The notes under the pieces were generated by a model. It made no database searches. It saw only the letters and a program-made list of their open reading frames with translations, and was not told the DNA's origin. Below are positions 2,120 through 63,463 of a DNA stretch of 64,000 nucleotides, piece by piece (the first letter of the stretch is position 1; the number at the start of each line of letters is the position of its first letter). The DNA comes from Phoronis australis (Eukaryota; Animalia; Phoronida), in NCBI GenBank assembly GCA_002633005.1, contig NMRA01000168.1, positions 713,188-777,187 of the forward strand, written 5' to 3'. Both the position numbers and the translations under genes were made by a program.

Positions 2120-3599
2120 TTAAAACATGTTTGGAATACGGTGTAGTCACACCAGAGACCGCAAGAATGTTCTAATATGTCCCGTTGACTTTGAGATACT
2201 TGAATCAGAAGGGCCGCGATTTAGACTGTATTTAGATCTGTATATGGGATTAGTTCTACGTGTATCCAGGTAAAGCAGACAAAACCTGAACGAACTCATC
2301 ACACTATAATCTGGTAACGGGGATCAGTTATAAGAAATGTTGCTTACCACCGACAAAGAAGAAATGAAAGGCAGATCATCAGTATGCATCCAAAATCTCT
2401 CTTACCATAGCCACCATCTTCCATTTACCACACACGTATATCCGACAGTTAAAAATGCAGATGATGTAATATTGTGTTCGACAAGAACCTTTTAAAGTGT
2501 AACGCTAGTCTAAAGAAGTTGAAATTGTTGTTACTGCGTGTTATTTATACCTTTTCAAACCCAAACTTTCAAACAGGGCTCCATCACGGTATGCAAAAAC
2601 GGAGTGCATTCACTGCGTAGTATACCGGGCGCGAACTATTGAGTCGTGCCTGAAAGCCATGGGTAAAAGTATGAACTACATGGACTTGGGGGTGGGGCAG
2701 CTGCATTGTCCCTTGATTACTGCGTAGTATGCGCATTTCAATTGTGCACTTCAAGTACATGTACGTGCGCGCTTAGATTGCAAAAGTCACGCCTCGGTAT
2801 TTCACCTCTGTTATTTTTGAAATAACTTCTAACATCAGAGACATATTGTATTTGACAGTTTCAAGAGTTTGAAGACAAGCTTCCTTCACAAATTGCTGTC
2901 GGGTCTCTCCTTTGCCCCATCCCAGAGAGATTCCAGTCAACAAATTAATTTTCTAAGAACATTCACTATTTTTCGAATGGGTTACATACACTTACATTGT
3001 ATTTTTGAATAGGATGCTGAATTTAGGTCACGTCTGATATTTTTGAATTACAGCACAAGCAGATTAAGATACCCCCTTTCAGACACAGTATGTAACACAC
3101 CAAAAGCCGTTATTTGAACCATCAAATTGTTTACATAGTTTCCACTGCAACTGGTTTGTCAAGCATTTCATTTACCCCGTTATTATCACAATTTACGACT
3201 GCCCCCCCACTGTGCTGTATGTGGGGACCCTGATTGGTGCTATTCGTGCACATGACACCGTGGTTACATGGGGAAAACTAGCATTCTGCCCAGGTATACA
3301 AGATCTACTGAAAAAAGAGTGAAAATGGGCACCTCATTGTGAATAAAATATTTTCTATGTGCCACGATAAGGCAATTAGATCTTCGGTGTCCATATCTTT
3401 CGTATTGGTTGTGAGTGCACCGTGTATTTACCACGTTTGGGAAGTTGCCTCTACCAGGCTACTAGGTTATATACCGGAAATGCAAACTAGGCTTATATAT
3501 GAGGTTTGTTTTCCATTGCCAAAGTGAGCATAAGCCAGACTCTGTCTTACCTGTCGTAATCATTTCACAAAGTATCGCACGTGCCCTAGCCGCACTATT

Positions 3600-3950
3600 G
3601 AAATAAACTTTCTTTTACTTGTCCTAAAATGCAGCGATTTTAAATTTCGAAGACTGCTAAAATCTGCTTTTCAGTTTAGAGAACTGTAGTGTTATTGGTT
3701 TGCCTTACTCCATTTTCGTTGTTTGGCTTTGAATCTTGTACTAAACAGTCGGGTCTGTTTATAAATGCATTTATCTCATCCACTAGACATTCGGCCAAGC
3801 CCATGATTAGCGACAAACTCACTCCGCTGAAAAACACCTGGATGAAGAGTGCACGCGTTCTGGCCCACTTGCCTGGAAATCCTGATAACGTAAAAAATGC
3901 CTAGTGGCTATATCCAACTCTGAAATATAAAAACGCGTCTAAGTCTGGTC
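3600..3950 (-). mobile_element. Possible highly decayed LINE reverse-transcriptase fragment
   Basis: LFIQVFFSGVSLSLIMGLAECLVDEINAF loosely resembles the RT segment LFADD..L....GLQ.CLD.L; no intact catalytic motif. Confidence 0.3.
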
Positions 3951-16494: not shown

Positions 16495-18640
16495 CAGCCG
16501 ATTTCATGAAGGTGGTTTAATAAAACTAGGTTGAAGAATTAAACCTTGTATTCCTAAACCTGGTCTAATTTTAGACCTAACTTGCATTTCACCAACATGG
16601 TTTAAATTTCTGAAAGACAGGTTTTGTTAGATCATGAAAAACTAGTTGAAAGTATGCAAGCTCTCCTGCTGTTTTGATTCGGATTAACCCAACAAAAAAT
16701 ATTGAAGTGCTTCAACGAAACTTTGATCACTTGGGTACACAATGACACACAGCAGTAGAATCAGTGCAGACGCTTTTCTCATGGGGAAAAATGCTCCCTG
16801 CCATAACTGATCAGAGAAAGAGCCAATGTAACAATCGAGAACAAGAATAGTGGTGCCAAATCAAGTCAACGTAAGCAGCAGGCTGGCAGAAATATTGATC
16901 CAGAATAAAGGAAAGAAAAAATGACCAGTGAAAAAACAGCAAAAAAAAACGGAGATGGACCCAGTGGCAGATCAAGGATATCACGAGGAGATATTTTTCA
17001 GTTTGTATCGTCCAGCACAAGTATTCACATTAAAGTACTTGCTCTCAATTAACCTCAAAACAGTAAATGCACACATTTATTTCCGAGTCATATTACTTTT
17101 TTGCTGCCAAAGGGTCACGGGGGCGGATCCAGGATTTTGAGGAAGGGGGCCTGGACAGACTATTAGCCAAGATTTTGCCCGTCAGACATTCGCACCCCCG
17201 AAATACCAATTGGAATCTGGGAGAATTTTAGGGGGATTATGGCCCCTTGGCCCCCTCTATATCCGCCACTGGGGCAGGATCCCTCCCTGGCAACCTTATA
17301 TCGGGGACCAATTGAGTTTGAACTCGGCCAGCTTAATCATTAGATGCCTTTTTAGTCATACGCGTAGGGCTTCCGACGATGACGCTCTGTTCGAACGGTC
17401 ATATTTTTAGAAAATACCAAGGACACCATTCTGTACATACTGTTCTAAGAATAGGCGGATTCAGGGGTTCAAGGAGTCCAGACCCCTTTTTCCCTTGATT
17501 TTAGTGATATCAAATATATCATGTCAAATTGTTCACCCAGGCCTTCCTTTTAAAAATTCCTTGATCGGGCGGACCCCTCCCCCTGAAGTATTCTTGGCCA
17601 CCCCTGTTACGTTTGTTCTTGTGTCGTCTTTAAACTGAATTATGAAACTAGTCCGTAAATGCACACCACAGCATCATTCAGTAGCAGCTGTGTAGTAGAA
17701 GTCTTCCATATTCAATAGTATTAAACCTGGGTCTGACCAAGTCTTTAAGTTAGACCTGGTTTAAGGTTTTAATATAGGTATAAGTAATTTATCCCATACG
17801 CGTTGAATCTGTCGAGGGAAATACGGCCATGTGATAAAGATTTCCGTATGGCACCTCCCGCACTACTTCAACAGAGACCTCAGAAATGGAATGTTCAAAA
17901 GGTAGGTTGACTCGACTTCTTCAGCCTGTTTGATCATCAAACTTTCCGAATATAGTTCAAAGTAATACAGTTGCAGCAGTGTAACTAACACTCGACATGC
18001 AACCAGGCCCTATACGTAAAATCTGGAAAAAAACTGTTAATTATATGACACATATTTCTCAGTTTTCAATTCGTTTGCTGAATACCATATCGTCTGCAAC
18101 TCAGGCGCCGATTCCTAGGAAACTGCAATATCAAATGTTGTTTTTAACTATTTCCAGGATATGTTGCACGTTCACTGCACAGTTGTCGTTGTTTTTTTCA
18201 TCTTTGTTACCTCTTTTCAAGACATTAATCGTTACTTTTAAAACTTGCAACCTAGCGCACAAGTACATATAGATAGGATGAGATCCGCCATGTGAACAGT
18301 CTGGGTCAAGTATTTAAAAAAACTTCCGGAAAGAATGTAAGCCCCTCGATTGGCGTACATGTACATGAAGTAATATCTCACTGGACCTTCTTCCGTGTAT
18401 CGACCGAGACCGAAGGGATAATACTTCATGTACGCCACTCTCGGTACGTTTTGTGTATATATACCTCGTTGGTGAAATAAAAACTGACCTAAACCAGGTA
18501 AGAAACTGGAGTTAAACCAGGCTTTACTAAACCACTGGTCTAAAAGTTAAACCACCTTAATGCAATGCAGATTATCTTTAAACCTGGTCTAAGTCCAGTT
18601 TAAATCAGGTTTAACTTTAAACCATCTTTATCGACTGCTG
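16495..18640. mobile_element. PIF/Harbinger transposon remnant
   Basis: Inverted ends (TTTCATGAAGGTGGTTTAA vs TTAAACCACCTTAATGCAA/TTAAACCATCTTTAT) with AAACCAGG/CCTGGT subterminal repeats; + strand Myb/SANT-like RFSHGEK..L..LIRERANVTIENKNSGAKSSQRK at about 16770-16960; - strand HARBI-like FLGIGA*VADDMVFSK near 18080-18130. Confidence 0.65.
17115..17272. mobile_element. Small MITE with GGCGGATCC...ATCCGCCACTG termini nested in the Harbinger remnant
   Basis: cacgggggcggatccagga at the left, atatccgccactg at the right. Confidence 0.5.
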
Positions 18641-19607: not shown

Positions 19608-19639
<32 letters not shown>

Positions 19640-26487: not shown

Positions 26488-26985
26488 CTTCCACCAGCGA
26501 TGTGGATGCCCGGGGCCGTGGCCTCGTCGACCCCACATCCCCTGCACGGTACTTGTGTTAGCCAAAACTATACTTGTTAATTTGAAATTGACGCATGTAC
26601 GCGTTTTTTGATGAAATGTTTTCTCGGCTGACTTGACAACGATTCATGATCCGAAGAGTTTGCTGATATTTTCAAACGATGACAGATAAACTGCACAGCT
26701 TTAACTGGCTTTCTGTGATGCTAGTCAACACCATCTAGGTCATAAACGTTCCGGACACTCGTCATTCTCATACTAAGACTAAAACTCTAAGCGGAAATTT
26801 GCCGAAACAAAAAAACACCATTGTGCTTTGACTGACCCGACACGAATGTAGGCGACCCCTGGTGACGTCATCCCAGGCCAACAAGGAAATACATGTACAT
26901 GTACATGTACCTGCTTTCATCGATCAAACAAACAATAAGATTGTACACTTGCTGAAAAAAGACACTGAGAAGGAAGAAAATCGAC

Positions 26986-27186
26986 ATGATGGAAGGCTGG
27001 ATACCACTGTGTATAGTACTTGTTGTTAACATGAAATTTACGACTGGTATACCTGAGACAGATTTCTTCCCATTTGGAGTGGAGAATGGTGATAGCGAAT
27101 TGCCCGCAAATGACGACGGAAGTTCTCCTGAAATTCCCGTATCAACTTTACTCCCGTTCTTCAATCATCAACACGGAAGCTTGTGG
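26986..27186 (+). CDS. NIDO-domain secreted protein (SNED1/tectorin/SUSD2-like N-terminus), exon 1
   Basis: Signal peptide MMEGWIPLCIVLVVNMKFTTG then FFPFGVENGDSELPANDDGSSPEI...PFF; TGG|GTGAGA donor, phase 0. Confidence 0.9.
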
Positions 27187-28429
27187 GTGAGATTCAGTTT
27201 TCAGTCCTTCATCGTTGTTGTCTTTTAGTAGGGAAAGCTTGTTCTCTCTTTTCAAAAAGTGAAACAATACAGTATAATTTCATTATTCTTCTCCTTACGA
27301 AACTAGACTGAAAAGATCTATTTTTGTTGTTGTCCCGATACTTCAAACAATTTATCTGAGCACTGACGGAAAAAGTCAGTCAGTGGGAGTGCCACAAGTT
27401 TGGTTAGAATTATATATTTTAATATCTATCAATTCATTATTTCAGAACGCGAGGTGAGTTCTGCTTACGCCTGCCGCATGGAACTCGCAAGTTAAACAAC
27501 CCCTTGCGACTTCCACACGGTGTCGTTTGGCATCGGTTACGTACGATGACTGGTGGATGAATGTTCGTAATCCATGATTTTGATGCCATTTCAGGTGCTG
27601 GTGCACCAAAAATGACTATCAACTAAAACATATTAAATTCAGTTCGATTTAAAAGTATTCGGAGTGTTGTCAACGAGCATTTTTAGGCTTAAGTTTCGAG
27701 TAAACAAATATGTTATTGAACTCCGACCTATGAAGTTTTTAACTGAAATGAAGCCGAAATAGAGTCCTTATAATAATTTGTCCCAACGCGTTGAATAAGA
27801 TGTGTGGAATAGGACCATGTGGTATTGTTTTCCGCATTTCACTCCGGGGTCTATTTTTAAACAGTCATCTACCTACAGGTAAATACATGTAATTTGCCAT
27901 GGAAATTTACAGAAAGTAAGTCAATATCGACTCAACGTCGCTCACTCGCAACGCTCGATCATCGAACATTCCCATAAAAGTGAAAAAAATAAAGATGCAT
28001 CAGTAGAAATAACACCCAATTATCAATCACCTGACAAACATAACTTATGTAGAAGACCTGTATAGATCAAGCCACAATATTTGTTTGTGAAATGGCTCTT
28101 TGTTAACCAGTGGTAAACTCGATATTTTTATCGGTAATAATGCTTGTTAGAAGATGCACTTCTGAGCTAGACCACCAATTTTTTAATAATTCTCGCAATA
28201 TTGGTGCCCAAAGCCCATTGTCACACTCAGCGTGTTCGCACATTATTGGGTTGTGAGTCATTTTTTTATTTTTGCCATCCATAAGCTTACTATTGAGGAA
28301 ACGTCAAAATGTTAGCCTGTGCTTATTACTAAAATACATGTAGTATGGAAAATATTGGAATTAAACTCAGATATAACCAGAAAACATACATGTATCAACA
28401 TCACCTGAAGACGCCCATCCCTGTTTCAC

Positions 28430-35564: not shown

Positions 35565-35684
<120 letters not shown>

Positions 35685-37884: not shown

Positions 37885-38066
37885 GGAAAGGAGGCTCCCT
37901 ATTTTATCGAGAAAGTGTTAATCGGACACTGTTGGACAAAGCTACAGGAGAACTACGAAACTCAGGTGCAACCGCCACACTGGAAAGATTCCAAGCCCTA
38001 TGGATGTTCATAGCCACTTGGAAAGACGTGGCTTTCTATGGCGCAGACAACGACGGTAAACAAAAG
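37885..38066 (+). CDS. NIDO protein, exon 3
   Basis: RKGGSLFYRES...FQALWMFIATWKDVAFYG...KQK|GTATTG; phase 1-0. Confidence 0.93.
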
Positions 38067-39059
38067 GTATTGACTACTGTGCATCAATAAAGGGGCATTA
38101 TTTACATGCAAACCATGCATTGGTTAATATTGGACATGAGACACCGGTGCATGAAGTTGTTTCCGCGTCTATTAGTCGACCCACTACCACGAGTATAGGC
38201 GAGGTTTAAGCAAATACATGTACACGATTTTCATCTCGTTCTCAAAGTAAGAAGGGGTCCAAACATAGGAACTACTAACACAGTCCCAATTAAATGTGAC
38301 CAATGAGCTCTGACCCGAGGGTAGATGTGCATAGGAAAACTCGATGAATGTCTGTTTTAAGGGAAATGTTCTTACTTATTTCTTGAAAATGAATTAATAA
38401 ACAGACTGCGACGTGCTGTTTGATCTACTCTTCACGTAACCTTTTTGTGCAGGGGACTGTATCACATATTTGTTACTACCCTCGGGATTTTTAAACATCG
38501 TTTATGTGTGTGCAGACATTGCCTAGGATGTAAAATAAGTGATATTGAATTAATAATAAGCAAAACTCGATCTCACTACATGTTCCCGTACGTGCAGTAA
38601 AGGAAGTGGACTCGTGTTCATGTATCCCACTAGACAATTCCGCCTCCTCTATCTTTAGCTTCTTAAGTGTGTCACTAATTTGTGACGTTTGCTAAAAAAT
38701 AAATGATTTGTCTGTTTGTTTAAAACAAAAATGCACCGCTCAGAAAAACAAGAAAATATTCAGCAGTGGCGCTAATACCGAGCTGTGGTCGTTTTTCAGT
38801 AATTTAACACTAATAATCAAAAAAATGGCAAATCGAAACTAACGGGATTTGCTTGTCATCTTTACTTACTTTTCCATAATCACGTATGTTTTCTTGTACT
38901 GAGAATACACCGTTGAGTATTTTCTCGTTATGATCGAAAAGTAAGCGCAGACCTCAACTTGGGTTAATGAAAATCTTCTCTTGACAATCAATGTCAATGG
39001 TGCACAACTCTGGACAACTTCATACGAGCTATAAACTTGATGGAGAAGATTTCGAAGTT

Positions 39060-40208
39060 TCCATGTCACGATGACGAAGGTTTAATACTGCGAAGGTCCA
39101 GTAATCCGAATGCCCATTACTCTGAAGGTTCGTAATCTTCTAAAATTCACTACTTTGAATTTCCACTATTCCAAAACTAGGGCCCGGTCTCTAATCTTTG
39201 TATTCGAAAATAGCTCGAAATTATTTTTGGCAATTTCTCTGCTCCTTTTGTGCGAACTCAAGATAAGTTGTTATCAAACTATGCTCGAATAATTATAGTT
39301 CATGCATACGAGTTCCTAGTCCAAACCCAACCCTAATATTGGATTGAAAACTCGAAATTTTGAGTTTAAACTCAAATTTTAGCTTTCATACTGGATTTGT
39401 CAACTCCAAACTAGGACTAATAACGTCATCCCACGTATATGTAAGTCATTATGTACTCGAACATAGAGTAATAGACACTTATCTTGAGTTCGCACAAAAG
39501 TAAACTAAAATATGCCAAACCTTATTTCAAGTTTCATTTCGAGTAAAAAGATTCGGGACTGGGCGCGGAACTCCAACAGTTCGCTACTCTGATCGTTTGA
39601 TCACGACACATTCTCAAGCAGAGACAACATCTGGGGCACGGCTGCGACGTCCAACGGCGGTAACAAATTTAAGAAGACTAAATGGTACTACCTGATTTCG
39701 TGAGAACTGGCAAGGACATATTGGCCTACTAACTTCATTTAGTTTCGACCCGGAAGTTTGCGTCGCGCTGCAATTCGATCTTGACATGAATTTGATGAAT
39801 GGTGTCATGGTTGATAATTCATCTGCATTTCTACTTCACATCATTTTCAAATTCAAATGTGTACTCATTTAAGACATGCAAGCGATTTTGCATGCACATG
39901 AAATCTGAATAGCTGGCCAACCGATTCTAGTTGTGCTGGCCAGCTGGAAACGGTGCTCATTGTCTACATGGAATCCAAACAAAGTGTTTGAGTGCCCGGG
40001 CGTTGTTTTCGATATACACATGTACGTGCATCTAATAACCGGAATATTGTTTATTTTTGCATGTAAAAGTTTTAAAATCACGTCTGAGTTTGAAAGTTAA
40101 GATATTTTTGGAGCGTCGAATATTCGGAGTGGTGAATCGTCGAAGTAGTGAACCTTCGGAATAGTGAACCTTCCAAGTTGCAAATCATTGAAATAATGGG
40201 ATGTTCCC
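39060..40208. mobile_element. Non-autonomous element with inverted ~16-bp subterminal repeat arrays (foldback/Mutator-like)
   Basis: Left array of CACTATTCCGAAGGTT-like units (about 39080-39175); right array GAACCTTCGGAATAGT (about 40120-40200) in the opposite orientation. Confidence 0.55.
39180..39565. mobile_element. Palindromic MITE nested in the previous element
   Basis: Arms of more than 100 bp are reverse complements, including exact CTTTTGTGCGAACTCAAGATAAGT / ACTTATCTTGAGTTCGCACAAAAG; GGCCC(G/A)GT termini. Confidence 0.8.
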
Positions 40209-40564
40209 ATTTCCAGCGATGTAAGCAACTTAAGTAACACGCTAAATTACAACCAGATGAACAATTTTGTTAAGTCATTCGCCGACTAAAATTCATAACC
40301 GTCTGAGTATGCAGTGAGGTGTAATCACTCACTTAAGCATGGGTGATTTCAAACTTTTGCAGGAAATAATGCGAGAATGTTCTCTTTCTGGACCACATTA
40401 CATCCCAATTTGTGTCCAAATCTTTGCGAGCAACCGTCACAGCATCTCCGTTCCTGGTATTACATGGGCGTCTAATAAAAAAGTCGCCCCTGCATCACCA
40501 AACCTCTGCATGCTACTGCCCCAGTGCTAAAAATGTTTATAAAGTACCTTTTGTTTCATGCAGA

Positions 40565-41590
40565 ATGTTGCTCTACATTATGCAAATGGTTTCAAACGGT
40601 TATCGGGCTGATAAATCTGGCCGAACCTAAATATTTGATCGTGTGTAGCGGGGCTAATCCACAACTATACTTGTCTCACAGTGTATATTCATGATACATG
40701 GGGCTTACGTAGAATATTTTGCATCTGGTTTCACACGGTAACCTCTTGGATGGGTTTACCTCAAATTTTAGCCCTTCTTTAGTCGTCTGGTAGGAACACC
40801 GACCACTGAAATTGTCTGGCATCTTACCTTTGTGAAATGTACAGTGATACTGAGCATCGTGCAACTGGTTTTAAACGGTTACGTAGTGGCTTGTTCTATC
40901 TCGATTCAGATATTTGGACGTGTCTGGCGGGGCTAACCCACCACACATTTGTCTGGCAGTGTTTATTCGTGATACCTGCGCACACAGTGAATATTTTGGA
41001 CTCGGTTTTAAGCAGTTACCTCTCGGTTTGATCTAGCTCAATTAGCAAACCATTTTGATAATGGTCTGGCAAGGGCATCCCACCACTAAAATTGTCTGGC
41101 ATCTAACTGTTGTTCCATGTACAGTGATGCGGAACATAATGCAATTGGTTTCAAACGGTTACCTGGTAGATTGATCTAGCTCAACTCGAGTATTTGGGCG
41201 TGTCTGGCGGGGCTCACCCAACTCTAGATTTGCCTGACACTGTTCAATCGTGATACCGTGGCGCATGGTGAATATTTTGCGACTGGTTTCTTGCGGTTAC
41301 CTTCTGAGATGATCTAGCTCAAATTTTTACCTTGTTTATAACCGCCCGGCGGATACTCCCCACCAATGAAATTGTGTGGCATTGGCCAATTTTGATGCAG
41401 TGGAATACGCAGTAGGTGTCCAAGGCAGTTTGAAGTGGTTACCAGAAAAGACGATCTAGCTCAATGTTTGAGTGCCATTCTCTTGGCTCCCCTGACCACA
41501 CTCACCAAAGCGAACCTGCCAGACCGCCGTTTGCAAGCGTGAGGATACCCATCTAGCACGGAAAGAAAATCGGTTACCTTTGCATGCCCA
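40565..41590. repeat. Diverged tandem array, ~140-bp monomer, ~280-bp A/B dimer, 7-8 units
   Basis: Anchor TGGTTTCAAACGGTTAC variants start at 40587, 40726, 40866, 41003, 41146, 41284 and 41426; recurring GATCTAGCTCAA and GTCTGGC. Confidence 0.9.
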
Positions 41591-41933
41591 AAAATCTCTG
41601 GGATCCCGGTGTATTTATATGAAATTTGTTCATCATATACTACTCAGTGGAGTTTTGATATGTAGCGTCACTTTATTTTTACTACGGAGCCATTTTTTCA
41701 AATTACTTAACTTGTGATACTAAATGTAAGCCTTCTCGTCATATGCACGTGATATGAATAACATATGATAATTACATACTGATATATTCAGCTGCTTGCT
41801 TGTATCGTGCTCAATAACTCAGGTTTTGCTTGTTGGATCTGACTGAATGTTTATTGTTATTGATTACCTTTATGTAAGTTAATAAACTTATTTAATTTTC
41901 TGAAGTAGAGTGACATGTTGTCAGAAATTGTAA

Positions 41934-42104
<171 letters not shown>

Positions 42105-42559
42105 TGAAATTAACGTCAACATGTTAACTGTCTTCTAAAAACAATTGTCGCGTGGATACTTAGCAACCTCATCCCTGTTCTAGATATTTCGTCTTTTATT
42201 ATTAGTTTATTTTCAACATATAAGGCCTTGGCCCACATGTTACATAAAATTTACAGGATGACGTCGAGCAGCTTTTCCATGAGGGCTGTGGCGTGAAATA
42301 CAAATTTCATTAGATTAATCTGGGCAATACGCTCCGACATTTTCATCAGCTTTAGAAATTGATGTTTATTTGGTCCCCACCAGCACCGTTCAGGTATAAA
42401 TGCAGTTCTCAGAGAACAGTACTTTTTGCAAACATATATGAAATGGTAATCATCTTCAACAGACTGAAACTGCTCACACGGTATTTTTGATCCACCAGAG
42501 CATGTCTACATTTTTACAGCATCAATTTTCAGACCCAGTAATCCAATATAGTTTTGCAA

Positions 42560-43190
42560 CTACTGTGTTGTATAAGACCAGACACACCAGGTTGTGAGAT
42601 ACATTGTCTCACCCGGCACATGTTGGGACTTTTGGAATATTGTAACACTTGTCAGCCGGGCGACAGCATGACCCGGTGCGACAAAATATGACGTCAACGT
42701 CTGTACATTATCACCCCGGTTACGGTATGTGTGGGATGCGAAAATGTGTGCACTGAACTCTGGCACGTATAGTTGCCCCAAATTGTAATAAGAAATAGTC
42801 TGCTTAACAGCGCTTTTGGCAAAGAACACGGATCCAGAGTCATCGGCTGGCCCTAGAAATTGGGTGAAAATCCGGGCAATAAACCGATGTCGACGACATA
42901 TATTTCTTCGGTGGGTCATATTTTGTGGCACTCTCTGTACATCGAAGCCCGAGCGACAATACTTGTCCAGTGTAACAGTTCGTATGACAAAACAAACAGT
43001 CGAGTGGTTATGGCAGTTATGATCCAGGTTTGCCAGACAGAATATGATGGTGTAATAACGATAGTCGTGTATTCGGGGAAGTGTCCTCATATTCGCAACC
43101 AGCAGAACAAGTGCAGTTTTCAACTAAATGGCCATCACATGTGCAGGAAGATTTCGTTCATCAACATGTAAACTGTACATCTACAGGTAT
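42560..43190 (+). mobile_element. Possible Sola-type transposase remnant
   Basis: ILVQCNSSYDKTNSRVVMAVMIQVC...ITIVVYSGKCPHIRNQQ aligns by eye to L.LQ.DN...NKN..V.A....L......V....GHTH..DQ; upstream CNTC. Confidence 0.4.
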
Positions 43191-43494
43191 GGTAGTACAT
43201 GTAAGACCTTAATAATAGTGTACGTTATCATTCTATCCTATGAGTTGAAGGGTACTGTTATGTGCTTTTAAGTTGAAAAAACTATCGGTGTTGTGCCAAA
43301 GAGACAAAAGGATCACCTGGACAAAATCGTTTCATACCTGCTGGTGACCTTTGCACTCCGAAATCCTATTACTAATGCCCCAAAATATTTGACGTTTTGT
43401 GCGTTACCATGGCAGTAAAATTCGTGTGCGTGCAATTGCAGCATCATTGCGATTTTTTAAAATTATTTTCTTTCATAGCTATTGGTGATTGTAG

Positions 43495-43656
43495 GTTGGC
43501 TTCAATGACGGGGACGGCAGTAACTACTTTTCAGTGAATGGTTCTTTAACAGAGCGAATAATAAATCTGCCGACCATGACGAACTGTGGAATTCCGGGAA
43601 AGTTCGTTTTCCAAATAGATGGAGCAGCAATTCAGGGATCGGGNACAGGCAAATAA
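43495..43656 (+). CDS. NIDO protein, exon 5 (ends at TAA, or at a GC donor after 43648)
   Basis: tgtAG|VGFNDGDGSNYFSVNGSLTERIINLPTMTNCGIPGKFVFQIDG...GSGTGK*; completes the NIDO domain. Confidence 0.88.
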   Translation, partial: VGFNDGDGSNYFSVNGSLTERIINLPTMTNCGIPGKFVFQIDGAAIQGSXTGK

Positions 43657-44792: not shown

Positions 44793-47700
44793 GTAAGTTG
44801 AGTTACATTGACTTATGTTGCGTATTTCACAACCTAGTACTTCTCCGGGTGCATGTTTGAGCATGACTACTTGCAGATTTGCAAGCCTCCTTTCACGGTG
44901 AAACAGTCTTTACAGATCAAATTCGCAGATAAGTGCGTGGGTTCAGTTAATAAATCGAGAAGCAAAACGGGGACGTATGTGCCAACCCAAAGTCTCGCGA
45001 GTTAAGCTAGTGCGATCACGCAATTTGGTTGCATCAGATGGTGATGTATCTCGAATTTTTGCATGGTTTTGCACCTTTGCAAGATTCTTTTGTCTGCGAA
45101 ATGCGCCCCTGGTGCTTTACTACAAATGAGGATTTTCGAAAGAATCTCTCCGAAAAAGAAAATATTGTGACATTGCCGAGAGTAGGAATGTGTACCGTCA
45201 ACATCTACACATATTTTCTGCACTGGATTGACTGTGACGCATCCAGGAAATCAACCGGCTAAGACATTTGGCGAAGACTAATGAATGCAGGCAGTGTCAT
45301 TCGGGGAACAGTATGGGTGGTAATCATATTGAGACAACATGTCTCGCATCAGAGAACCCATGAGATATTTTCCAGAAATCCAGTTGCTAAACTCCTCCAC
45401 CAAAGCTCTTTCATAATAGTTTCATATCTAGCTCAATGATTATTAAAATGTTCTTAATTTGTTCAAATATTTGAGTTGACCATCTATCTACGAAAGCGCT
45501 AGCTAAGACGTTTTACATTAGAGTACATATCCTGAACGCTCAAGGTCTTGTTCTAACTTCAGCAACGATTAGTACGCTGCGGTCGGTGATACGAATTTTT
45601 GAAAGGCAATCTCGCCATTTTCCGAAGCTTTAAAAGAGGCCGGAAATACATGTACATGTTTCAGCATTTTAATATGAATTTTGATTACTGGCATCCACAT
45701 ATTCCTAAATAGTGCATAGTATTTTTCTTTTTTACATTGAAAAGTAACATTTTTAGTTCCGTAAAGCCCCACTGCAAGCGCCGTTTTTCGTGACGTCACT
45801 GAGGCTATAAAGCACAAAAAGGTATAGTTCATTAGCCGTGCAAGTACGTAGTCCAGTCCACAGATCAACATGTGCATACTCACAACCTTTTTCGTTTTTC
45901 TTTTGTGTGACTTTGATTCATCCCAGGGCCTAACTAGCTGTATGAAGACTACAAATAGGTACCAGTAGCGCTGTGTCTTGCAATCCGCTATATTCCGAAA
46001 ATTCACATAGCCCGGGAAGTTCCCCTTGTCATCTCGTCGCGAAACGTGTATCAATATGTAGAGCTCTACACCGTCAGGGGAGCGTGCAAATATCTGGGAG
46101 TCAACCGACACTCACCTAAGTAAAAACGATCTAGTAAACGTTATTTTATTTTATTTTATAATTTTTAGCCTTTTGTATCAAAAAACAGTACGCTCAACAC
46201 ACGCTATTAGTTCCTAAAAATTTGCGACATCTGTCGGGAAATGATGACAGCTTCGCAGGAGCAAATTTTTCATCAAATTCGATTTCCTGGTATTGAAATA
46301 CTAAAAACTTGTAAGGAAATGAAATCAGTCCTAGTTATTTGTTGTGACATGTATACAACTTCGAAGAACAGTTCGCTTGAAGGAACAACTCGGTGAACGA
46401 AACTGGCCAATAAGGCAACAGGTGACTTCACCGAAAGCCGACCTTAAGGTAGGTGGATACACAAACAAATTAATTTTGACTGTTTTTTACATTTTTCATA
46501 TCATCTTAATCTTCAATTTTTCATGCACAGTATACTGAAAAAAAATAAAGCCATTTTGAGAATACAAAGTTTTTTTTAAATTATATTTGTCCAAGCTTCA
46601 GTAAGTCATATGGCTTGAGTGCTCAACAGCTCATTGGCTGACAAGTGGAGCGGAGCTTATACCAGGACACTAGCTCTAATCTAATCCTGTCAACAGACAT
46701 TGCGTAACCGGACAATCGAGAGTGCTGTACCCGCCAGCTGATATTGATGTTTTGTAGCAAGGTCAAAAATAAACTAATTCTATTTTTGACCATGTGAAAG
46801 TTGGTGGTGGAATGGTGAACTGGTTCCTGTTCCGAACCTGAGCCTGTTTGTCCATCTGCAAAAAAATAATTTGAGTACGCCAAGTTCTACTGAAGCCAAC
46901 ACTGCACTCAGCTTGAGGAGTCAGTGCAGAAACTGTGCGTGTGCAAGAGAAGTCGGAAAGGCGAGGTGGCTTGCGAGAGGACGCTGAGCGTCGACGTGGG
47001 TGGTGTTGCACGATTCTATGAGAGTGCATGCATGCACGCGCTGTGAAGACACGCCGCGTTCGAGACAACTACATGCCTTCAGAGTAGAGTTTTTGGAGAT
47101 AAACCGTGCTTCTGTGCTAGGAACCCGCCATGGAGAAACTAGGCTGCCAAACTCAGGGGATTTTTAACTTGCCGCCGGCCGTAACCCAAAGAATTAGTGA
47201 AATGACCTAGTTTCCAACATAACAAAATTGTTCTCGTGCATAGATTCAAACGTATTCCCGAACTAAAACTCATGATATTATACGATTTTAGTGGAAAGCA
47301 ATATCAGAAAATTTTGTAACTTGAGAATCTCACCCAAGCGACGCTATTTTTGCTGAAAGTGCTATTTTCATCCCAAAGTCCATTCGGTCAAAATGTTGGC
47401 GGCACAGGCACGTGAAAATCATTACGATGAAAGTAGTTCTTTATCCTCGTCGCCAATATTGTTATGTAGACAGTAACGAGGCGATTTGATATAACACATA
47501 CGTGAATGTTGGTTGATGAAGAGATGGTAACTACATACATGTATAATATTGGAATACTAACAAACAGGTCTATGCAATACAGTTAGAGAGTCTTTTATCA
47601 CTCTGAGTGGAGGATTCAGATGAGTCGCGTGTGTGGGCGGCACACCAGTACAGCAGACAATAGATCAACGCTAAGCTCCGCCCACGACAGCCATATTTGT

Positions 47701-48650: not shown

Positions 48651-51600
48651 TAGTCCTGTCATTCTCGGGCTCCAGAGGGCCCAACCTAGAAAAAATTGCA
48701 ACAGAAGGTTTTCCTACATAAATGGCATCTTCAAGCATCCCTTGGTGTCAGAAAAAAATCTACCGAAATCGGAGTGGCGGAAGTCGGTTTTTCAAGATGG
48801 CAGAACCAATGACTGACAAAACCGGTGTTTACTGTTTTCTGGCATATTACTTTTATGTAACAGCTAAAAATAAAACAATACATTTTGTCATAGATTATGT
48901 ACTTTTCATAACAGGCATACCAATCAAAAGATGCCAATTTTCCGTAAAATAAAACCAACATGGTCGACAAAATGGCGACCGAAACGGCAATTTGGAACAT
49001 GTTGCAAGATTTCTTTTTATATTTTGCCCTGACAATGGCAAAAGTTTTATTCTTTTGTATGTTGGACAATTTAAAATATTTGGACTTTACAATTGGTCAC
49101 TGGTTTGCGAGAAAAAAATCAAGATGGCTAACAAAATGGCCGCCAAATGGCTGCCAATTCACAAACCCCAATTTACCGTATTTACGTTCTACAAACTTTG
49201 CTTGTAACCTGATACGCATTTACACAAAACATTTTACAATCTACAGTCAGGGTTAATGATACTAAATTTTAATCACATTTTAGATTATATAACATGAAAG
49301 TTGGTGTGTTTTTCAGAAAAGGCTTTAATTAAATTTTCATAATATATTTCACAAACTCAATTATTTTTCTGAAAAATATATTCATTCGAGGTATCAAAAT
49401 AATATTTGTTAGGAAAACATGTTATTCTGGTGGAATTATTGGCTTATTCATTACACAAACCCTTAATAAAATTGGGCAGGAAGTGGCTTGTTTTGCTATT
49501 GGAGATACATTATTCATTATTCCCAAGCATCAAGTTCGTCTGCTGCTAGTATTGAGAATTTGACTGCTGACTCCACCTGAATTTGATGAAAAGCCAATAG
49601 GATTGTGTAACAAAAAGTTATAAATCGAGTTTTAATCATTAGGACTCACAATTTGTTTAATATGCATGCTTTTTATGAACATAGGTAACTGATTTTAGAG
49701 GAAATTAGTGCCAGCAAACAAAACGACAGTGATCTGCAGTCACTTGTTCTTAGCCAGGCTTGGAAGATTTCATACTCCGAGATGAGCTTTCTGGAATGTA
49801 TTGGATACGTAATGTCAAGCACAGGGCTTCAAAAAGTTCTTGAGACGGTGTATGCATCAAGCAGTGTGATCCTTGTGTTAAATGGAAAAAGTGTGGATAG
49901 AGCAGTGAGGGGGCATATGTTGGTAGACTCAGCACTGAATGTTATCATAAAAGCCAGAATATTCAACATCCTACATGTACTTCCAAATATTGACAGAACA
50001 AGTAACGCTAATCCAAAACCAATGAAGAAAGAAATTCAGGTTCTTCAGAAATTCCAGGAGTCCAGAATGTCACAACAGAACACACAGATTCCATGTCAAG
50101 AGGTTGAGCTGTTTAATGTTTGTACACACATTTTGGCTCGTCAGAATATGGAGACAGATTCTTCAGACATCCCGGACATCCCAACTGATCACATAAGTAG
50201 ATGTGTACTCTGGGGCATGCCATGCCCAGCCATTTTCGTCCGATTCTGAACCTTGGATTACAGTGGAGTTCACTTCTGGCTTCCAACCTGCTGCCATTGG
50301 TATATTCAAACACGACTGAATCAGAGTATAGGTCTTCAGAATTCGCAGTGACAGAGAATAGTTCGTCAGAAGAATCAACGGCCAATGATATACTTCATGA
50401 TGATTTGAGAGCTGGTCTGAAGCGGTATGATGATCTTATTGCTGGCATGACCTCTGTGTGCGGCGATGTATGCTCGTCGGGAGTGTTTTGTGGGTAACCA
50501 TAAAAATGGAAGCACATAGATCAGACTTGAGCTTGCAAAGTCGAATCATTAGTCTTTGGCTACAGTACATGGAGATAAGTGACATCCTTCGACTTTTTTA
50601 ATAGCAGAAATAACGTCATATTGGGAGCTTCACCTAAAAGCAGTTTCTGAAATGCTGCCTTACTTTGCAGCTGCTGGTCACAACTGCCTTATGCAAAATC
50701 TTCATACATATACATGTACTTGCAGCAGACATAGCAACTCAAAGACACCCGTCCAGATGTCTACGGCCAACACACCATAAGACAAAGTGAAAGATTCTGG
50801 GCAGGCTTGTCATAATGAGATATGATCTTGTAATTGAACAAACGCTCATGAAAAGCATTAAAACCACAGGAAGTTTGACTAGAGGTTGCGGAATGGGAGA
50901 TACACAGAGTGCACCATGGCTGCCTCCTTGCCGGCATGCTTACGTATAAATGGTGACATGCAGACTGTGACAAACTTGAGTTGTGATACAAGCCAGCACC
51001 ATAAAGAATGTACCCAGGCAAGACCGTCGGGTGACGACAAAGACATCCGCAGCCTTGTTGAATTCCTCCACAACAGTAACCCATTTTAAAGAGATACATT
51101 GCAGAACATTGCCACTGGTGTGACTGTAGGTACATGCGTCGGTGCCAAAAATGCCAGAGAAGAGGGGAAGGCTATTCATTTGCCTATGTAAAGGTCAAGT
51201 ATGAAAGACTTCACATTCAGAAAGAAAGTCAAGGTTGTGGCAATGACAATTCAATCAGTTCATGCTGCTAAATGTGGACCCACGACTGCTTTTTCAGTGA
51301 ATCCTGACAACTGCAAAACACAACCGTGAAAGTTCATCAAGCCTTTTGAAGTTTGAGCTGTGTGTTGGTTCCCCTGCTTTTTTGGATACATTTCGTCTTC
51401 CCAGAGTCGCTTATAAATCAATATGAGCTGATGCACTCCGGGTCCACTGGGGGACTACCTAAGGATTTCAATTTCCAGAAAACACGGTGTTGCATGTAAT
51501 CGACAGCGGTTCTCTCCTTCACCGTATTCCATGGCCTTGAGGTGCAAAGTTTCAGTCATTTGGTAGACCTTATGCGGATTACATCAGCACGTGCACCCAG

Positions 51601-51722
51601 CCTTAAGTGTTGTTTTGATGGTTACTGAGATGGACCATCAACTAAAGATTTTTGTCATGTTCGAAGACTGGGTGGGGTGGGTGGAACTGAAGTTCACTTC
51701 AATGGTGACATGGTGAACGGTG
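48651..51722 (+). mobile_element. Academ-like DNA transposon, 3' truncated, with decayed transposase
   Basis: TAG-starting end with AA(A/G)ATGGC subterminal repeats; FHT.MSFLECIGYVMSSTGL...YA...GKSVDRAVRGH, WELHLKAVSEMLPYFAAAGHN, FWAGLS..DLVIEQTLMKSIK, VIDSGSLLHRIPWP, VVFDGY..GPSTKD; many stops and frameshifts. Confidence 0.8.
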
Positions 51723-54125: not shown

Positions 54126-56998
54126 TTTAATTACATTTGGTGAATTTGCAATCAAAATTAAGCAGATTCGTTAAACCAGTATAGTTACGTAGCATCTATT
54201 GTTTACCCAAACATAATTAAAAACACAACTGTACATTCTGCTGGATAGCTTCTGGCACTCCCCCATTTTCGATTGATCACCTGGGCTACAGACAATGACG
54301 CTATCCAACAAAAATTACTTTGTGTTATTAATCAAAACTGTGAAAAAGGTATATTAAGCATTACACAAGTGGAGAGCCCCATACCCACTTCCTTCAGACA
54401 CACCATAAACGCCAAAAGGAAGAGCTATTTAAGGGCTTTGCCCCAAAATGCATCAAGTTGGAAGTTACGGTGGGTACACTCATTAAAATCATCTGATCAT
54501 ACCTCCCAGAACAGAAGTATAACGACGCCATTTGCATTTCTGCCATTAGTCAGAAACAAATGTTTTGTTTGGTGACCATATAGTATTAAACCAAAAAACA
54601 GGATCATTACAGACCACGGGTGAACACAGTCAAAACCACAGCGAATTGGTAAACGATTGGAATTGTCTTAACTTCGGTTGTGGTTGGGCGATTTTGGCAA
54701 TTCAAAAACTAAACATGATCGTCGTTTGACGAGGGTTTCCGAAATGCTATTCGTTAATGTTCAAATACGTTATAACTTACATTTTATTCTCCACAACACA
54801 GCCCCGTCAGGCTAGATACGATCTTATTGGTGATTGGAGCAGTTATCGAACAAAATTGAGCTGGCTCTCCAACCATCAATGCCAGAATGGGGTTTATCAG
54901 TAGTTCAAGATATTGGCTACATGCTTCGTCTTTCCAAATTGTTGGGAGCAACGAGAAAACGCCGTAATGCGAGTCCAAATCTCACATCCTAATCAAGAGT
55001 TTGAAAAAAAACAAAAGGTTTTTTGGCGTTGGAAACTCAAAAACACTACTCGTGATAACTGAAACTTTATTCTGTCACATGATATTATCTACTCATATCA
55101 TTTACTGTTACAATCCGTTCTCAGAAATAATCTTTTGACTGCTCTGACAACAGAACAAATTATAAAAACGCCGTTGAAAAAGTAGATATTGACGTTAAAA
55201 TACATGTCAGCAAGTTTGACCCCATGATTTTTAAGTACATATGCACAAACTTTGGGCAACTTAAAATGGATGTATTCTTACTAATTACTTAATCAATACT
55301 TATTCTGAAGACGGGTTTCACGCAAAATCTGTTGTTGAGAGAGGAGAGAGAACAAGCAATGTACAACGACGGTGCACGTGGCGCTCGCAAAATGAGGTAA
55401 TCCATATTCAGTGCGCAGCATAGTCCCAATTTTGTTTCATCTATCGATCAGTGGAACTCTGCAAACACAACGTATTCAACATTTTTAGTGTCAGAACATC
55501 CGGGTGATGCACGGTGCCACAACCTAACCTATTTCAGGACGTCAGCTTTCACGTGATTTCCAATTCAGCCTCATCTTTTTCCTTCCTGTCTACTGAGATG
55601 GCCACTCCTGTTACACGGAAGACCTTGGCTTTGGACAAAGGTCTTTCTAAATAATAAAAGGGTCAAATCAAATACATAATGATTTGTGTCGTCATTGTCA
55701 TTTCCGGTTGCATACGTAATCGTGACCTTTGACCTTTCACCTTTAATCCATGACCTTTGACCGAGGTGCCGCATAAACGTGCGCTGAAAACAAAGTTTAC
55801 TATAGTTCTCACGTACACGTGAACTACACTGTCAAGCTGCATTTCCACTGACCAATGCTATGTGCACTATAATTATAACGACTTTATAGAATTCACGGTT
55901 ATAATGTTTCTAACCACATCTCTGTGGTATTTTTGTAATTTACAGCACGAAAATATCAGAAAATAATGAACAGAGCATTTTTTCGAGGTAAAGCAAGGTT
56001 TCTCCGGCGCTTGATGAAAACTGGCTCGTTTTTGTCATTTGACCTGCGTACCCGAACCTTTTACTATACTCCGTGAGCGGCTGTACTCCAAATATAACTG
56101 CTAGACACAACACAAAACACCATCGTTCAGTCTAGCCGCTATAGAAAGCAAGATTGTGAACATCCATTCAATATTACATAACCAGTGGATAGGCCTGTAC
56201 TTACATGTACATGTAATGTTTAGGCTGCAGCAGGGAGTGTTGAACCTTCTATTGTACCTCGTCTTTGTGTGAAAATTAAAGAAAAATCTCTTTTTACTGA
56301 AGCCGTGGGGGCGAAATCTGACGAGTAGTTACTGTGTACCACGGAGTACAACGTATAGATATGATGCTAAAAGATGTAATGAATACAAACCAGTAAGCTT
56401 CAAACGAGGACACAAATTATCAATGACACCATGCACTTCTGCACGATGTCACTGCACTTTAGGGTTGTGGGAATACTCTTGTTTTTAAATATTCTGTGTC
56501 ACTTCCATTCATATCAGCCAAAACGTTTGTGATTAATTTGTCGCTCAACGACATGTTAGATCACTATCACCTCTACACCATTAGATTGAATGTGATCAGC
56601 ATAGCTTATTGTGACCACAGACTACGAAGAGCATCATGCAGCACACATGCCATTTGCAGCCTGTCCTTACTTCTTTCGCCATCAACTCCCAGTCGTCAAA
56701 TACCCCCATAACTTAACCCATCCCCAGGAAATTCTTGCGTNCCCCCCCCCCGGACATTTAACCACTCAATAACCGCATCCCTTCCGAGGTTTAGGCCAGA
56801 CCATTGGTTGAGCCTAAACCAAACGGAGTTCAGAGCGCGTCCGTTTGTTGATCACCCTGGGACTGACTGAGCCTGAAGCGCTTTCTACGGGAAGCTATTT
56901 TCGATCACCCGACAAGGATATACATGTACCTGCTTTGATCGATCAAACTAAAAATTCCATTGAACAGAAGCTGCAAGGCGAAAAGGAGGGAATTCGAC

Positions 56999-60900: not shown

Positions 60901-63463
60901 TCTTCTGCAAAAAGTAGTTCATTTTTTGGGATTAAGCCAACTGCACGGACTCGTTATGAGCAAATTTTTAAAAACTGTACGAACTCGTCAGTGAGCCTGT
61001 TAAGATTTAGCCAAATTTTAACCACACTAGGCCGTTTATTTTTATTATTACCAAATTCATGGAATATAGTCGGATAGGTGATTAAGAAAGATTGCCTTTA
61101 ATCTATGAAATTGCAAATGGTGTATTAACGTGAGAATACATATAAGAATTGTGAGGCCATTGTCTACCAACTTCAAGAGCTGTTACTTTGCTGAAGTAAT
61201 TGTCCATGTCATTGCAGATCACGGCGATCAAGTACTTAGGATTAGGTATCTAACATTTCATGAACACAACAGTTTCAGAATATTTCAGATTTAATAATGT
61301 TGGTGCACTCCCGTAACTGTTTTATAAATGTAGGAGGGCTGCGAAACCAGCTCAAGCACTATTTGTCGATACGAGAGAAAGAGCTTGATCACAAGCGTGA
61401 AAAAGTAGAACGAGAAGGTAAAGGTGAAGAATACACCGAGCGAAAAGAGTGCAAGTGGGCTGTAGAGACATATTTATCACGAAATACAGTGCAATAAAAA
61501 TGTAACGTCATGCGTGATCGATGCTCTGAAAGGGAATTGAGTGAAGTCCAACACCTGGGTCACTGAAGTTTGATAAAATGGCCGCAGTTGGCACGTTCTC
61601 CTTATATAATATAGCGTTCTTACTGTATTTATATGTGGCAGAATTGTTACCCTCTAGAAAACCGTAACAATGAGATATTCGAACGACATTGTAAAGTTTT
61701 GGCGGATAGGATACTTGATTGAAGTTGATGTGAGCGTTCGAGCGTTCAAGCATATCGAAATGAAAACTGGCGGAGAGCCATTAGAATCGAAAAAAAACCT
61801 TGTCGTACGAATCGTTTAGAAACTGCCTACATCAAATCTGGATAAGTCTCAGTGGTGGAGACATTGACTTTTTCGGCTACGAAAGTTATCGAAATTTGAT
61901 AAACAGACACCAAAAACTTAAATAGGAAATGGAGAATGTAGAGGAACTGGGAGATTTGTTAAAACTGTAGTCGATTAGGGGCAAATACTTTCACAAATCC
62001 CTTCATCTGGGCTTGGAGTTAAAAGAATATACACAAAATATCTGCATTTTGTCACTGAGATTGAAAAATGGTAGTCCATTATGAAGGGACGTGAACAGAA
62101 ATTCAAGAAGTTGGGCGTTTCTACATGCCAAATGTAGAAACCGGTGTAATGAGTCATTCTCGCGACAAATCTTGCGGTCTGTTGTATGCGAATTTTAGAT
62201 GTTTTCTCCAGTTAAAAGTCGTTGCAACAGTCGACTAATCTTTGAAATTTAGTGTTGGGAATTCACGTACAAAGCGGTTTACGTCGGAGAAACCAACAAA
62301 TCTCAGTTATTTCTGCGAGATATAGTCTGTGCAGTAAGTCGGACAGCAAGTTTTTGGTTGGGAATAGGATTGCGGAGACATTTGACATTTTTTATCAAGA
62401 TACTGGTTTATATGCATAGGATTGAATTACTTTATGTAGGTACTAAAGCATAATTAGACGACAACAATAACTTGAAAACACTACCGGCTCAATGCGAAAC
62501 CGTACAGTTGCTCATGACAAGTCCGTACACATATTTTGAGTGTATACGTCATAAAATGCTACGTGAATTAAACTACAGATTGAAATTATCACTTACCCTT
62601 GTTATGCGCGCTGTGTATGGTTATATGGTGGTACACAAATACAAACCTTTAGTCAAATAAAACTAAATTAAAAATTGACGCCCAAAGTTTATCATCACGA
62701 TTGGTGAGATCTCTTCAGCATAGTTAGTATAGCAACCCTGTTAAAGTAATTAAGCTCACATTCAACGACTGCACTTTCACTGAGTGTATGCCAACATTTT
62801 CATTGCAAAAAGTCACGTATAACGAAGTAAACGAGGACATAAAGCACCGCAGTTCATGGCATCGGGGATTTTTAACAAGTTTTGCTCATGACGACGACGA
62901 ACCCCTCATGACCAGTCCAAACACGTAGTACAGGTCTCCACACCGTGATGGGGAAACGGCAAACCAGTGGCGGTAAGCGGCTGATGTGAGTGCGCCCAAG
63001 GATACGATATCATCCGCGCACCCAGCCTAGAAAATGGGGGGGGCTCGAATTTCTGTTGAAGCGGACCTTTTGCTGACAAAACGACATGCATTTCGATTAA
63101 CGCCTTAACTCAAATCCGTCGTATGAAGTTTTTGACTGAAATGAAGTGGATACACATGTAGGGTCTTTATGATAATTTATCCCATGCTTCATGAGTATGA
63201 TAGCTGAAATACGGCCATGTGGTATTGTTTCCCGTATTGCGCTAAAACAGCCCTCTACATGTACATGTATACTCATGCATGGGATTTTAAAAAGAAGGTC
63301 AAATCTACGCAACATCACTCGCCGGCTCGATAATCGAACATTCCCATAATACATGTAGTAAAAATTGTAAAGCTACAGCAGTATAAATAGCACTACGACT
63401 GTCCATCTGATGGTAGATCCAGCTCTGTCTGCACCTTCTCGCTGCACTTCAGCACCGCCAAAG

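What the first reader, a model, noticed from the sequence alone, without database searches (positions are those of the whole stretch)
2756..63357. Pervasive TA(CATGTA)n palindrome behaving as a 6-bp insertion: candidate mass transposon-footprint mutagenesis
Seen: TACATGTA occurs at about 35 loci by eye (e.g. 2756, 5233, 6402, 7669, 15412, 19525, 23067, 27884, 28335, 34437, 35131, 38215, 43196, 49972, 50711, 52312, 57386, 63350), with doubles at 21777, 36780, 56202 and 63256 and a triple at 26890. A rough estimate at ~38% GC predicts about 2. I saw none inside the intact exons. Homologous sites differ by CATGTA units: three in the 5' flank of NIDO paralogue 1 versus one in paralogue 2 (56921), and present at 63350 but absent from the homologous site near 27975. 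Known: Tc1/mariner elements duplicate TA, end in CA...TG, and can leave TA-CATG-TA on excision. Inference: repeated insertion and excision of such an element has scarred the genome at about one site per 2 kb, and each scar offers new TA targets, which would seed a hexamer microsatellite.
Basis: partly seen in the sequence, partly recalled or inferred. Interest (0 to 1): 0.85.

Follow-up and report, generated by a model that had tools for sequence, protein, structure and literature searches.

The report
Jumping-gene scars pepper animal DNA
The eight-letter word TACATGTA is about fifteen times too common in this animal DNA and at several places is a six-letter insertion at a TA, most likely the scar left when a cut-and-paste jumping gene hopped out, although that gene was not found here.

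Summary
Observation confirmed. TACATGTA occurs 41 times at 35 loci against 1.5-2.9 expected, and contigs of sequencing runs carry it. It behaves as a CATGTA insertion at TA. All 4 gaps of 6 or 12 bp among 35 gaps in within-window homologous pairs are CATGTA units (2 of the 4 lie in pairs I chose after seeing the site). Two sites in a dead transposase-like ORF add exactly two residues against homologues. Flanks favour A at -3/T at +3 (36 of 70, p=0.0007), as in published Tc1/mariner target motifs. 24 of 35 loci have no near-copy beside them, so slippage alone fails. Best reading (0.7): excision footprints of a TA-targeting element with CA...TG ends. Not shown: the element in this genome, allelic polymorphism, genome-wide scale. 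Exon avoidance is uninformative. 'Mass mutagenesis' overstates it: the units are about 0.4% of bases and about 1 in 10 small indels. The footprint is known from C. elegans Tc1; my searches found no paper on genome-scale build-up. This scan noted the same pattern before in sea-urchin and mollusc DNA.

The parts
2756..63357 (.). Field of 35 TA(CATGTA)n loci: 2756, 5233, 6402, 7669, 15412, 16065, 18356, 19525, 21777(x2), 23067, 26890(x3), 27884, 28335, 28387, 29918, 34437, 34834, 35131, 35540, 36746, 36780(x2), 38215, 43196, 45647, 47536, 49972, 50711, 52312, 52991, 56202(x2), 56921, 57386, 58266, 63256(x2), 63350
   Evidence: enrichment
63350..63357 (.). Unit inserted relative to the homologous repeat copy near 27975; no pre-existing CATG at the empty site (which reads AA rather than TA)
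   Evidence: exact 6-bp gap
63154..63161 (.). Decayed unit CACATGTA (first T changed to C), a second 6-bp gap against a plain TA in the 27719-28015 copy
50711..50718 (+). Unit inside a dead transposase-like ORF; adds two residues. Could also be a TACATA duplication plus one transition
   Evidence: K-to-P spacing 19 against 17 in 11 of 12 homologues holding the motif (26 fetched)
49972..49979 (+). Unit inside the same dead ORF; adds two residues (HV); not compatible with tandem duplication
   Evidence: LP anchor two residues later than in 12 of the 13 homologues that have it (24 of 26 matched the region, 11 lack the anchor)
26890..26909 (.). Triple unit 77 bp upstream of the ATG (26986) of NIDO paralogue 1; one unit shared with paralogue 2, two extra
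56921..56928 (.). Single unit upstream of the ATG (56999) of NIDO paralogue 2; predates the duplication (about 82% identity)
18342..18444 (.). Short inverted-repeat element whose left arm has an extra CATGTA against the right arm; the empty arm already reads TACATG, so duplication explains it equally
45647..45660 (.). TACATGTACATGTT; contigs of runs X1, X2 and X4 all end at 45682, as expected if the 31-mer from the second TA is shared with other genomic loci (inferred); unit present without gaps in sample S2
38215..38222 (.). Candidate allelic polymorphism: a haplotype about 10% divergent in X1 and X4 spans it with 8 letters put in and 6 left out (computed from lengths); the letters were not seen
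   Evidence: table 8, records 3 and 19
49641..51715 (+). Decayed multi-copy transposase-like pseudogene (no Pfam family; relatives named from Mytilus); host of two units; family not assigned
26986..43643 (+). NIDO-domain gene 1, exons about 26986-27186, 35567-35680, 37883-38056, 41949-42087, 43497-43643; 12 loci in its introns against 8.6 expected

Best explanation
The TACATGTA words are six-letter CATGTA insertions at TA sites, most likely excision footprints of a cut-and-paste transposon of Tc1/mariner type that inserts at TA, duplicates it and ends in CA...TG. Inferred steps: the element inserts at a TA with a preferred A at -3/T at +3; the transposase cuts it out leaving two terminal bases as a 3' overhang on each flank; end joining keeps and fills both overhangs, giving TA-CA-TG-TA; germ-line scars drift, fix and decay. 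TACAGTA/TACTGTA (about 2.4-fold enriched) would be the 3-base version from CAG...CTG ends. Each scar gives its own TAs a CATG half-site that matches 3 of 4 positions of the Tc1 motif CAYA, which would favour re-insertion; this and/or slippage builds doubles and triples. Shown: enrichment, insertion polarity at several sites, flank bias, excess stacking. Not shown: the element, the cut, the repair route, allelic polymorphism.
For: 41 against 1.5-2.9 expected. 4 of 4 gaps of 6 or 12 bp among 35 gaps in 1,914 aligned columns are CATGTA units; 2 of 2 in the pair taken straight from self-BLAST. Two in-frame +2-residue insertions in a dead ORF. A at -3: 36 of 70 half-sites against 22.6 (p=0.0007; local background p=0.0004); CAYA score 1.69 against 1.31 (permutation p=0.0005). 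The Tc1, Tc3, Minos, Mos and SB target motifs all have A at -3 (PMC2577343 table). TACAGTA+TACTGTA 26 against 10.8 (P=6e-5), A at -3 in 23 of 50 (p=0.04); SB's canonical footprints are cag/ctg (PMC5224488). taCATGta is named as a Tc1 footprint (PMC3520976). In 115 metagenome loci from unidentified organisms the parallel words TACCGGTA (13 against 1.7) and TAGGCCTA (14 against 2.2) are also enriched, chains such as TACATGTACCGGTA occur, and TA-flanked CAG...CTG MITEs sit in some of those contigs (L044, L063, L057).
Against: No matching element or Tc1/mariner transposase in the window: 35 scars and no full site. No allelic empty/scar pair seen; 45647 and 52312 show no length difference in the contigs listed. 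The 6-bp form is called rare in C. elegans, where 4-bp forms make 78%; here the 4-bp forms are only weakly in excess and lack the flank bias (31 of 116). The flank bias is partly confounded: 11 of 35 loci have a CATG-like neighbour (background 12.6%, p=0.003), and without them A at -3 is 19 of 48 (p=0.066); per half-site it is 24 of 56 against 16 (p=0.035). One-mismatch neighbours are in excess (64 against 36-50) but show no A at -3 bias (34 of 118). The bias is not significant in the metagenome loci after a low-complexity filter (47 of 115 against 36, p=0.19). Sites 18356, 45647 and 50711 are compatible with duplication.
Confidence: 0.7

Rival explanations
1. Replication slippage: a motif-biased hexamer microsatellite, in which TACATG-like sequence is duplicated and then decays.
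For: 11 of 35 loci have a CATG-like neighbour, 2 of them exact. 5 multi-unit loci against 0.66 expected. 18356, 45647 and 50711 can be written as duplications. Many metagenome copies lie in TA/CA/TG microsatellites.
Against: 24 of 35 loci have no near-copy beside a perfect core. 63350, 63154 and 49972 are insertions with no template next door. It does not explain why this one 8-mer stands out while its neighbours do not. It probably does contribute to doubles and triples.
Confidence: 0.1
2. A TA-specific, transposon-independent insertion process (an unknown repair or end-joining route that adds a fixed palindrome), or footprints of a different TA-targeting superfamily with CA...TG ends.
For: No element was found. 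The dominant 6-bp product is atypical of Tc1 as described. Several TA-bounded palindromes are chained in other organisms' DNA.
Against: A fixed CATG core is what terminal dinucleotides would leave. A sequence-blind hairpin or template-switch route should enrich many palindromes, and only this one is enriched here. The flank bias matches Tc1/mariner motifs.
Confidence: 0.14
3. Selected transcription-factor sites (Irx-type homeodomain, or a Myb as in Phytophthora).
For: TACATGTA is reported as the preferred Irx site (PMC3520976 passage) and is bound by PsMyb37 (PMC11134190 abstract). One unit is kept 70-80 bp upstream of both NIDO start codons.
Against: Poisson-like spread (CV 0.95). Copies lie inside a dead ORF and inside repeats, where they are derived insertions. 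Whole-unit indels and tandem stacking are not how binding sites usually arise. Survival of one 8-mer over about 18% divergence is unremarkable. Later co-option of some scars is not excluded.
Confidence: 0.05
4. Library or assembly artefact (linker or ligation junction).
For: CATG is a restriction-type palindrome and the assembly has gaps.
Against: Contigs assembled separately from reads match the window letter for letter across 34437, 38215, 45647 and 52312, and sample S2 carries 45647 without a gap (X1/X2 may be the window's own sample). Decayed and paralogue-shared copies exist.
Confidence: 0.01

Closest known systems
Tc1 excision footprints of Caenorhabditis elegans (taCATGta; TATGTA/TACATA)
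   Same: Identical 8-mer, TA target, CA...TG ends; flank motif CAYATATRTG shares A at -3 and C at -4 (passages of PMC3520976, PMC12632400, PMC2577343, PMC9635669). Eide and Anderson 1988 seen only as a citation (not held).
   Different: There the 6-bp form is called rare and 4-bp forms make 78% of somatic events at single studied loci. Here the 6-bp form dominates, at one fixed site per 1.8 kb, with no element in sight.
Sleeping Beauty canonical footprints (TA-cag-TA, TA-ctg-TA)
   Same: TACAGTA/TACTGTA are about 2.4-fold enriched here, with a weak A at -3 bias.
   Different: They are the minor class here; at least 2 of the 26 are plain coding sequence (57106, 50561).
Phytophthora promoter motif TACATGTA (motif-1; bound by PsMyb37) and the Irx homeodomain site
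   Same: Same highly abundant 8-mer, with tandem forms in the examples printed.
   Different: Read there as a conserved factor site, with a footprint origin dismissed. Here copies are derived insertions in neutral DNA.
Hexanucleotide microsatellite (CATGTA)n
   Same: Doubles and a triple occur in excess.
   Different: 30 of 35 loci are single units, most with no template beside them.

Membership tests
Tc1/mariner excision footprint | Structure TA + left terminal bases + right terminal bases + TA | tested here: met
   TA-CA-TG-TA at 35 loci; matches the Tc1 footprint as cited
Tc1/mariner excision footprint | Derived insertion at a single ancestral TA | tested here: met
   63350, 63154, 49972, 50711 and extra units at 26890; 63350's empty site reads AA; 50711 and 18356 also fit duplication
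Tc1/mariner excision footprint | Flanks match the family's target preference (A at -3/T at +3) | tested here: met
   36 of 70, p=0.0007; weaker after removing CATG-like neighbours, p=0.035-0.066
Tc1/mariner excision footprint | A resident TA-flanked element with CA...TG ends and a DDD/E transposase in the same genome | tested here: inconclusive
   None in the 64-kb window (145 longest of 251 ORFs scanned); no genome held; such MITEs seen only in other organisms' contigs
Tc1/mariner excision footprint | Empty, full and scar alleles at one orthologous site | tested here: inconclusive
   One search showed 12 of 281 indel rows, none at a locus; length arithmetic at 38215 is compatible only
Tc1/mariner excision footprint | Usual product spectrum (4-bp forms dominant for Tc1) | tested here: not met
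   TACATA/TATGTA 62 against 43-55 expected, no flank bias; the 6-bp form dominates
Tc1/mariner excision footprint | Produced by transposase excision in an assay | not testable with these tools
   needs a bench test
Slippage-born microsatellite | New unit copied from an adjacent template | tested here: not met
   24 of 35 loci have no CATG-like neighbour; met or compatible for a minority
Selected transcription-factor site | Clustered at promoters, conserved, absent from dead repeats | tested here: not met
   Poisson spacing, derived copies in a pseudogene and repeats; one shared upstream copy

The most novel reading that the evidence does not exclude
TA-targeting transposons act as a genome-wide, self-reinforcing micro-insertion mutagen in many eukaryotes. 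Both-overhang fill-in leaves TA-XY-X'Y'-TA scars (CATG, CCGG, GGCC) that make up about a tenth of small indels, become the most over-represented 8-mer, attract re-insertion, seed microsatellites, and supply ready-made Irx/Myb sites. On this reading motifs such as the Phytophthora promoter word TACATGTA began as scars.
Probability: 0.3. Interest if true: 0.75.

Novelty: new variant of a known kind. Interest (0 to 1): 0.5.

Why it matters
Footprints are usually studied one locus at a time. If they pile up to one per 2 kb, they form a countable fossil record of excision for elements that have mostly gone, a readout of germ-line end-joining (6-bp fill-in rather than 4-bp), a non-slippage origin for a microsatellite, and a confounder for motif discovery, since the same word is treated as a factor site elsewhere. 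The claim can be tested directly with two haplotype assemblies of this very polymorphic animal.

Tried and rejected
Whole-genome k-mer and element search: no genome held. A closer allele view of 36700-38400 was not obtained, so allelic polymorphism stays open. No RNA holder listed for the stretch. A motif of the window's high-copy SINE-like repeat found 0 matches in metagenome contigs, so no family-wide indel table could be made. TIR scans in the window: 9 TACA...TGTA pairs at 13 or more of 20 against 4 in an offset null, none convincing; the 18362-18432 pair continues outside the TA. No window row among the 40 best shown (lowest shown 17 of 22); one search's list was swamped by microsatellites. 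No inverted partner for the repeat edge at 45653. Pfam on the 145 longest ORFs plus 4 exon stretches gave only Sushi, NIDO and RVT_1; 106 ORFs of 60-68 aa were not scanned. The transposase-like ORF has no Pfam family. A homologue search with a NIDO exon to place the lineage found nothing; 'animal' rests on spliced NIDO/Sushi genes and Mytilus-named relatives of the ORF. Exon avoidance rejected as evidence. Generic hairpin or template-switch palindromes rejected: 13 other TA-bounded palindromes occur 0-3 times. Paper searches with no report of genome-scale footprint build-up: (open-access library only; one search listed 40 of 425 papers; no supplements read).
Full report
Observation. TACATGTA occurs 41 times at 35 loci (30 single, 4 double, 1 triple), at the coordinates given. 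Markov expectation is 1.5-2.8 for orders 1-3 and 1.6-2.9 for orders 2-5 once the units are collapsed. It is the top 8-mer; its 24 one-mismatch neighbours occur 0-7 times each. Spacing is Poisson-like (mean 1,782 bp, CV 0.95). Only the two NIDO-paralogue sites share flanks. Contigs assembled from reads match the window exactly across 34437, 38215, 45647 and 52312, and a second sample carries 45647 without a gap (X1/X2 may be the window's source), so it is not an assembly artefact. The window is animal DNA with a Sushi-domain gene end, two NIDO-type genes and a LINE fragment; the lineage was not placed. No locus falls in about 1.4 kb of exons, but only 0.54-0.77 are expected, so this says nothing.

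Is it an insertion? I aligned 10 homologous pairs within the window (1,914 columns, 72-85% identity) and found 35 internal gaps: 3 of 6 bp and 1 of 12 bp, all four CATGTA units. Two lie in the pair 27719-28015/63112-63393 taken straight from self-BLAST: 63350, and a decayed CACATGTA at 63154 facing a plain TA. The other two (extra units at 26890 against 56921; left against right arm at 18356) are in pairs I extended or added after seeing the site. A dead multi-copy transposase-like ORF (49641-51715; 26 homologues) holds two loci. At 50711 the K-to-P spacing is 19 against 17 in 11 of the 12 homologues with the motif. At 49972 the LP anchor lies two residues later than in 12 of the 13 homologues that have it (24 matched, 11 lack it). 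Caveats: 18356 and 45647 have an exact CATG beside them, and 50711 can be a TACATA duplication plus one transition. 63350, 63154 and 49972 have no template.

Alleles. The species is very polymorphic: laid contigs differ by up to about 10%. A haplotype seen in X1 and X4 spans 38215 with 14 gap letters and a net +2, that is 8 put in and 6 left out, compatible with lack of the unit. The indel table showed 12 of 281 rows, none at a locus, so this is not shown. The contigs listed over 45647 and 52312 have no gaps. Polymorphism remains untested.

Target signature. Against 4,332 background TAs, scar half-sites have A at -3 in 36 of 70 (22.6 expected; p=0.0007; position-wise chi-square p=0.003, one of 8 positions tested) and lack T at -1 (13 against 22.7). 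A local background gives p=0.0004, and the mean match to CAYA is 1.69 against 1.31 (p=0.0005). The table in PMC2577343 (passage) gives Tc1 CAYATATRTG, Tc3 AWATATWT, Minos ATATATAT, Mos AATATATATT and SB RCAYATATRTGY, all with A at -3; PMC9635669 (passages) confirms the Tc1 motif. Against this: 11 of 35 loci have a CATG-like neighbour (12.6% background, p=0.003), and without them the bias is 19 of 48, p=0.066, or 24 of 56 half-sites against 16, p=0.035. One-mismatch neighbours (64 against 36-50) show no bias (34 of 118).

Related products. TACAGTA+TACTGTA number 26 against 10.8 (P=6e-5), with A at -3 in 23 of 50 (p=0.04); these are SB's canonical cag/ctg footprints (PMC5224488 legend). The 4-bp Tc1 forms are 62 against 43-55, without bias. 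Multi-unit loci number 5 against 0.66 (P=0.0006). A scar's inner half-site CATG matches CAYA at 3 of 4 positions, so re-insertion would be favoured (inference); slippage of an existing unit explains stacking equally well.

The element. No TA-CA...TG-TA element and no Tc1/mariner transposase was found in the window, and no genome is held. With 150 bp masked around arrays (259 kb left), TACATGTA is 102 against 7.7 (38 loci), TACCGGTA 13 against 1.7 (9 loci) and TAGGCCTA 14 against 2.2 (8 loci), and chains such as TACATGTACCGGTA occur. TA-flanked CAG...CTG MITEs lie in L044 (308-495; that contig has 8 further loci), L063 and L057. These loci were selected on the motif, many copies sit in TA/CA/TG microsatellites, and the A at -3 bias is not significant there after filtering (47 of 115 against 36, p=0.19). 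They show that the pattern and suitable elements co-occur elsewhere, not that this genome has one.

Mechanism and size. Most likely (0.7): insertion at TA with target duplication, excision leaving two terminal bases on each flank, and end joining that fills both overhangs. The 2-base staggered cut and the polymerase fill-in are recalled general knowledge, not tested. PMC3520976 (passages) calls taCATGta a rare Tc1 footprint, and PMC12632400 (passages) gives 78% 4-bp forms, so the repair outcome here would differ. By hand: 41 units are about 0.4% of bases, 35 loci about 0.8% of TAs, and 4 of 35 small indels, a visible but modest force. Slippage alone fails because 24 of 35 perfect cores have no near-copy. 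Selection for Irx or Myb sites (PMC3520976 passage; PMC11134190 abstract) fails for copies in dead DNA, though later co-option is possible; one unit is shared upstream of both NIDO start codons.

Novelty. The footprint is known. Nine searches of the open-access library found no report of genome-scale accumulation; subscription papers and supplements were not seen. Earlier unchecked notes of this scan give the same reading for sea-urchin, mollusc and diatom DNA; they are not independent support. One reports crowding in first introns: here 8 loci lie in the first NIDO intron against about 4.2 expected (P about 0.07, by hand). Verdict: real feature, a new variant of a known kind, mechanism likely but the element and alleles are missing. 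Interest 0.5.

Noticed in passing
window 49641-51715 (+): Decayed multi-copy transposase-like ORF with no Pfam family; relatives up to 1,500 aa, one named Tesmin/TSO1-like CXC protein in Mytilus; summed contig depth about 100 times that of unique DNA.
   Followed up: partly
window 60307-60618 (-): LINE reverse-transcriptase fragment (RVT_1, E 1e-6); the 5 kb 58274-63255 around it has no TACATGTA, perhaps a younger insertion.
   Followed up: no
window 63011-63669: Inverted-repeat element enclosing a 280-bp fragment (63112-63393) that also occurs at 27719-28015 in the first NIDO intron; looks like captured sequence.
   Followed up: partly
window 40527-41382: About 280-bp tandem repeat, three copies about 75% alike, rich in GATCTAGCTC.
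   Followed up: no
window 20294-20534 and 53020-53242: Very high-copy SINE-like repeat, present in RNA reads; loose read ends look tRNA-like (recalled resemblance).
   Followed up: partly
window-wide: TGACGTCA occurs 7 times against about 1 expected.
   Followed up: no
window 33300-53200: Haplotype contigs differ by up to about 10% with many indels, so the species is extremely polymorphic.
   Followed up: no
L017, L038, L050: Intergenic DNA built of chained TA-bounded palindromes (CATG, CCGG, GATC cores) in gene-dense contigs of about 50% GC.
   Followed up: partly
L044 308-495; L063 5-503; L057 6490-6623: TA-flanked MITEs with CAG...CTG ends and near-perfect terminal inverted repeats.
   Followed up: partly
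window 28984-29816; 39182-39564: Other non-autonomous inverted-repeat elements whose ends are not of the TA-CA type.
   Followed up: no
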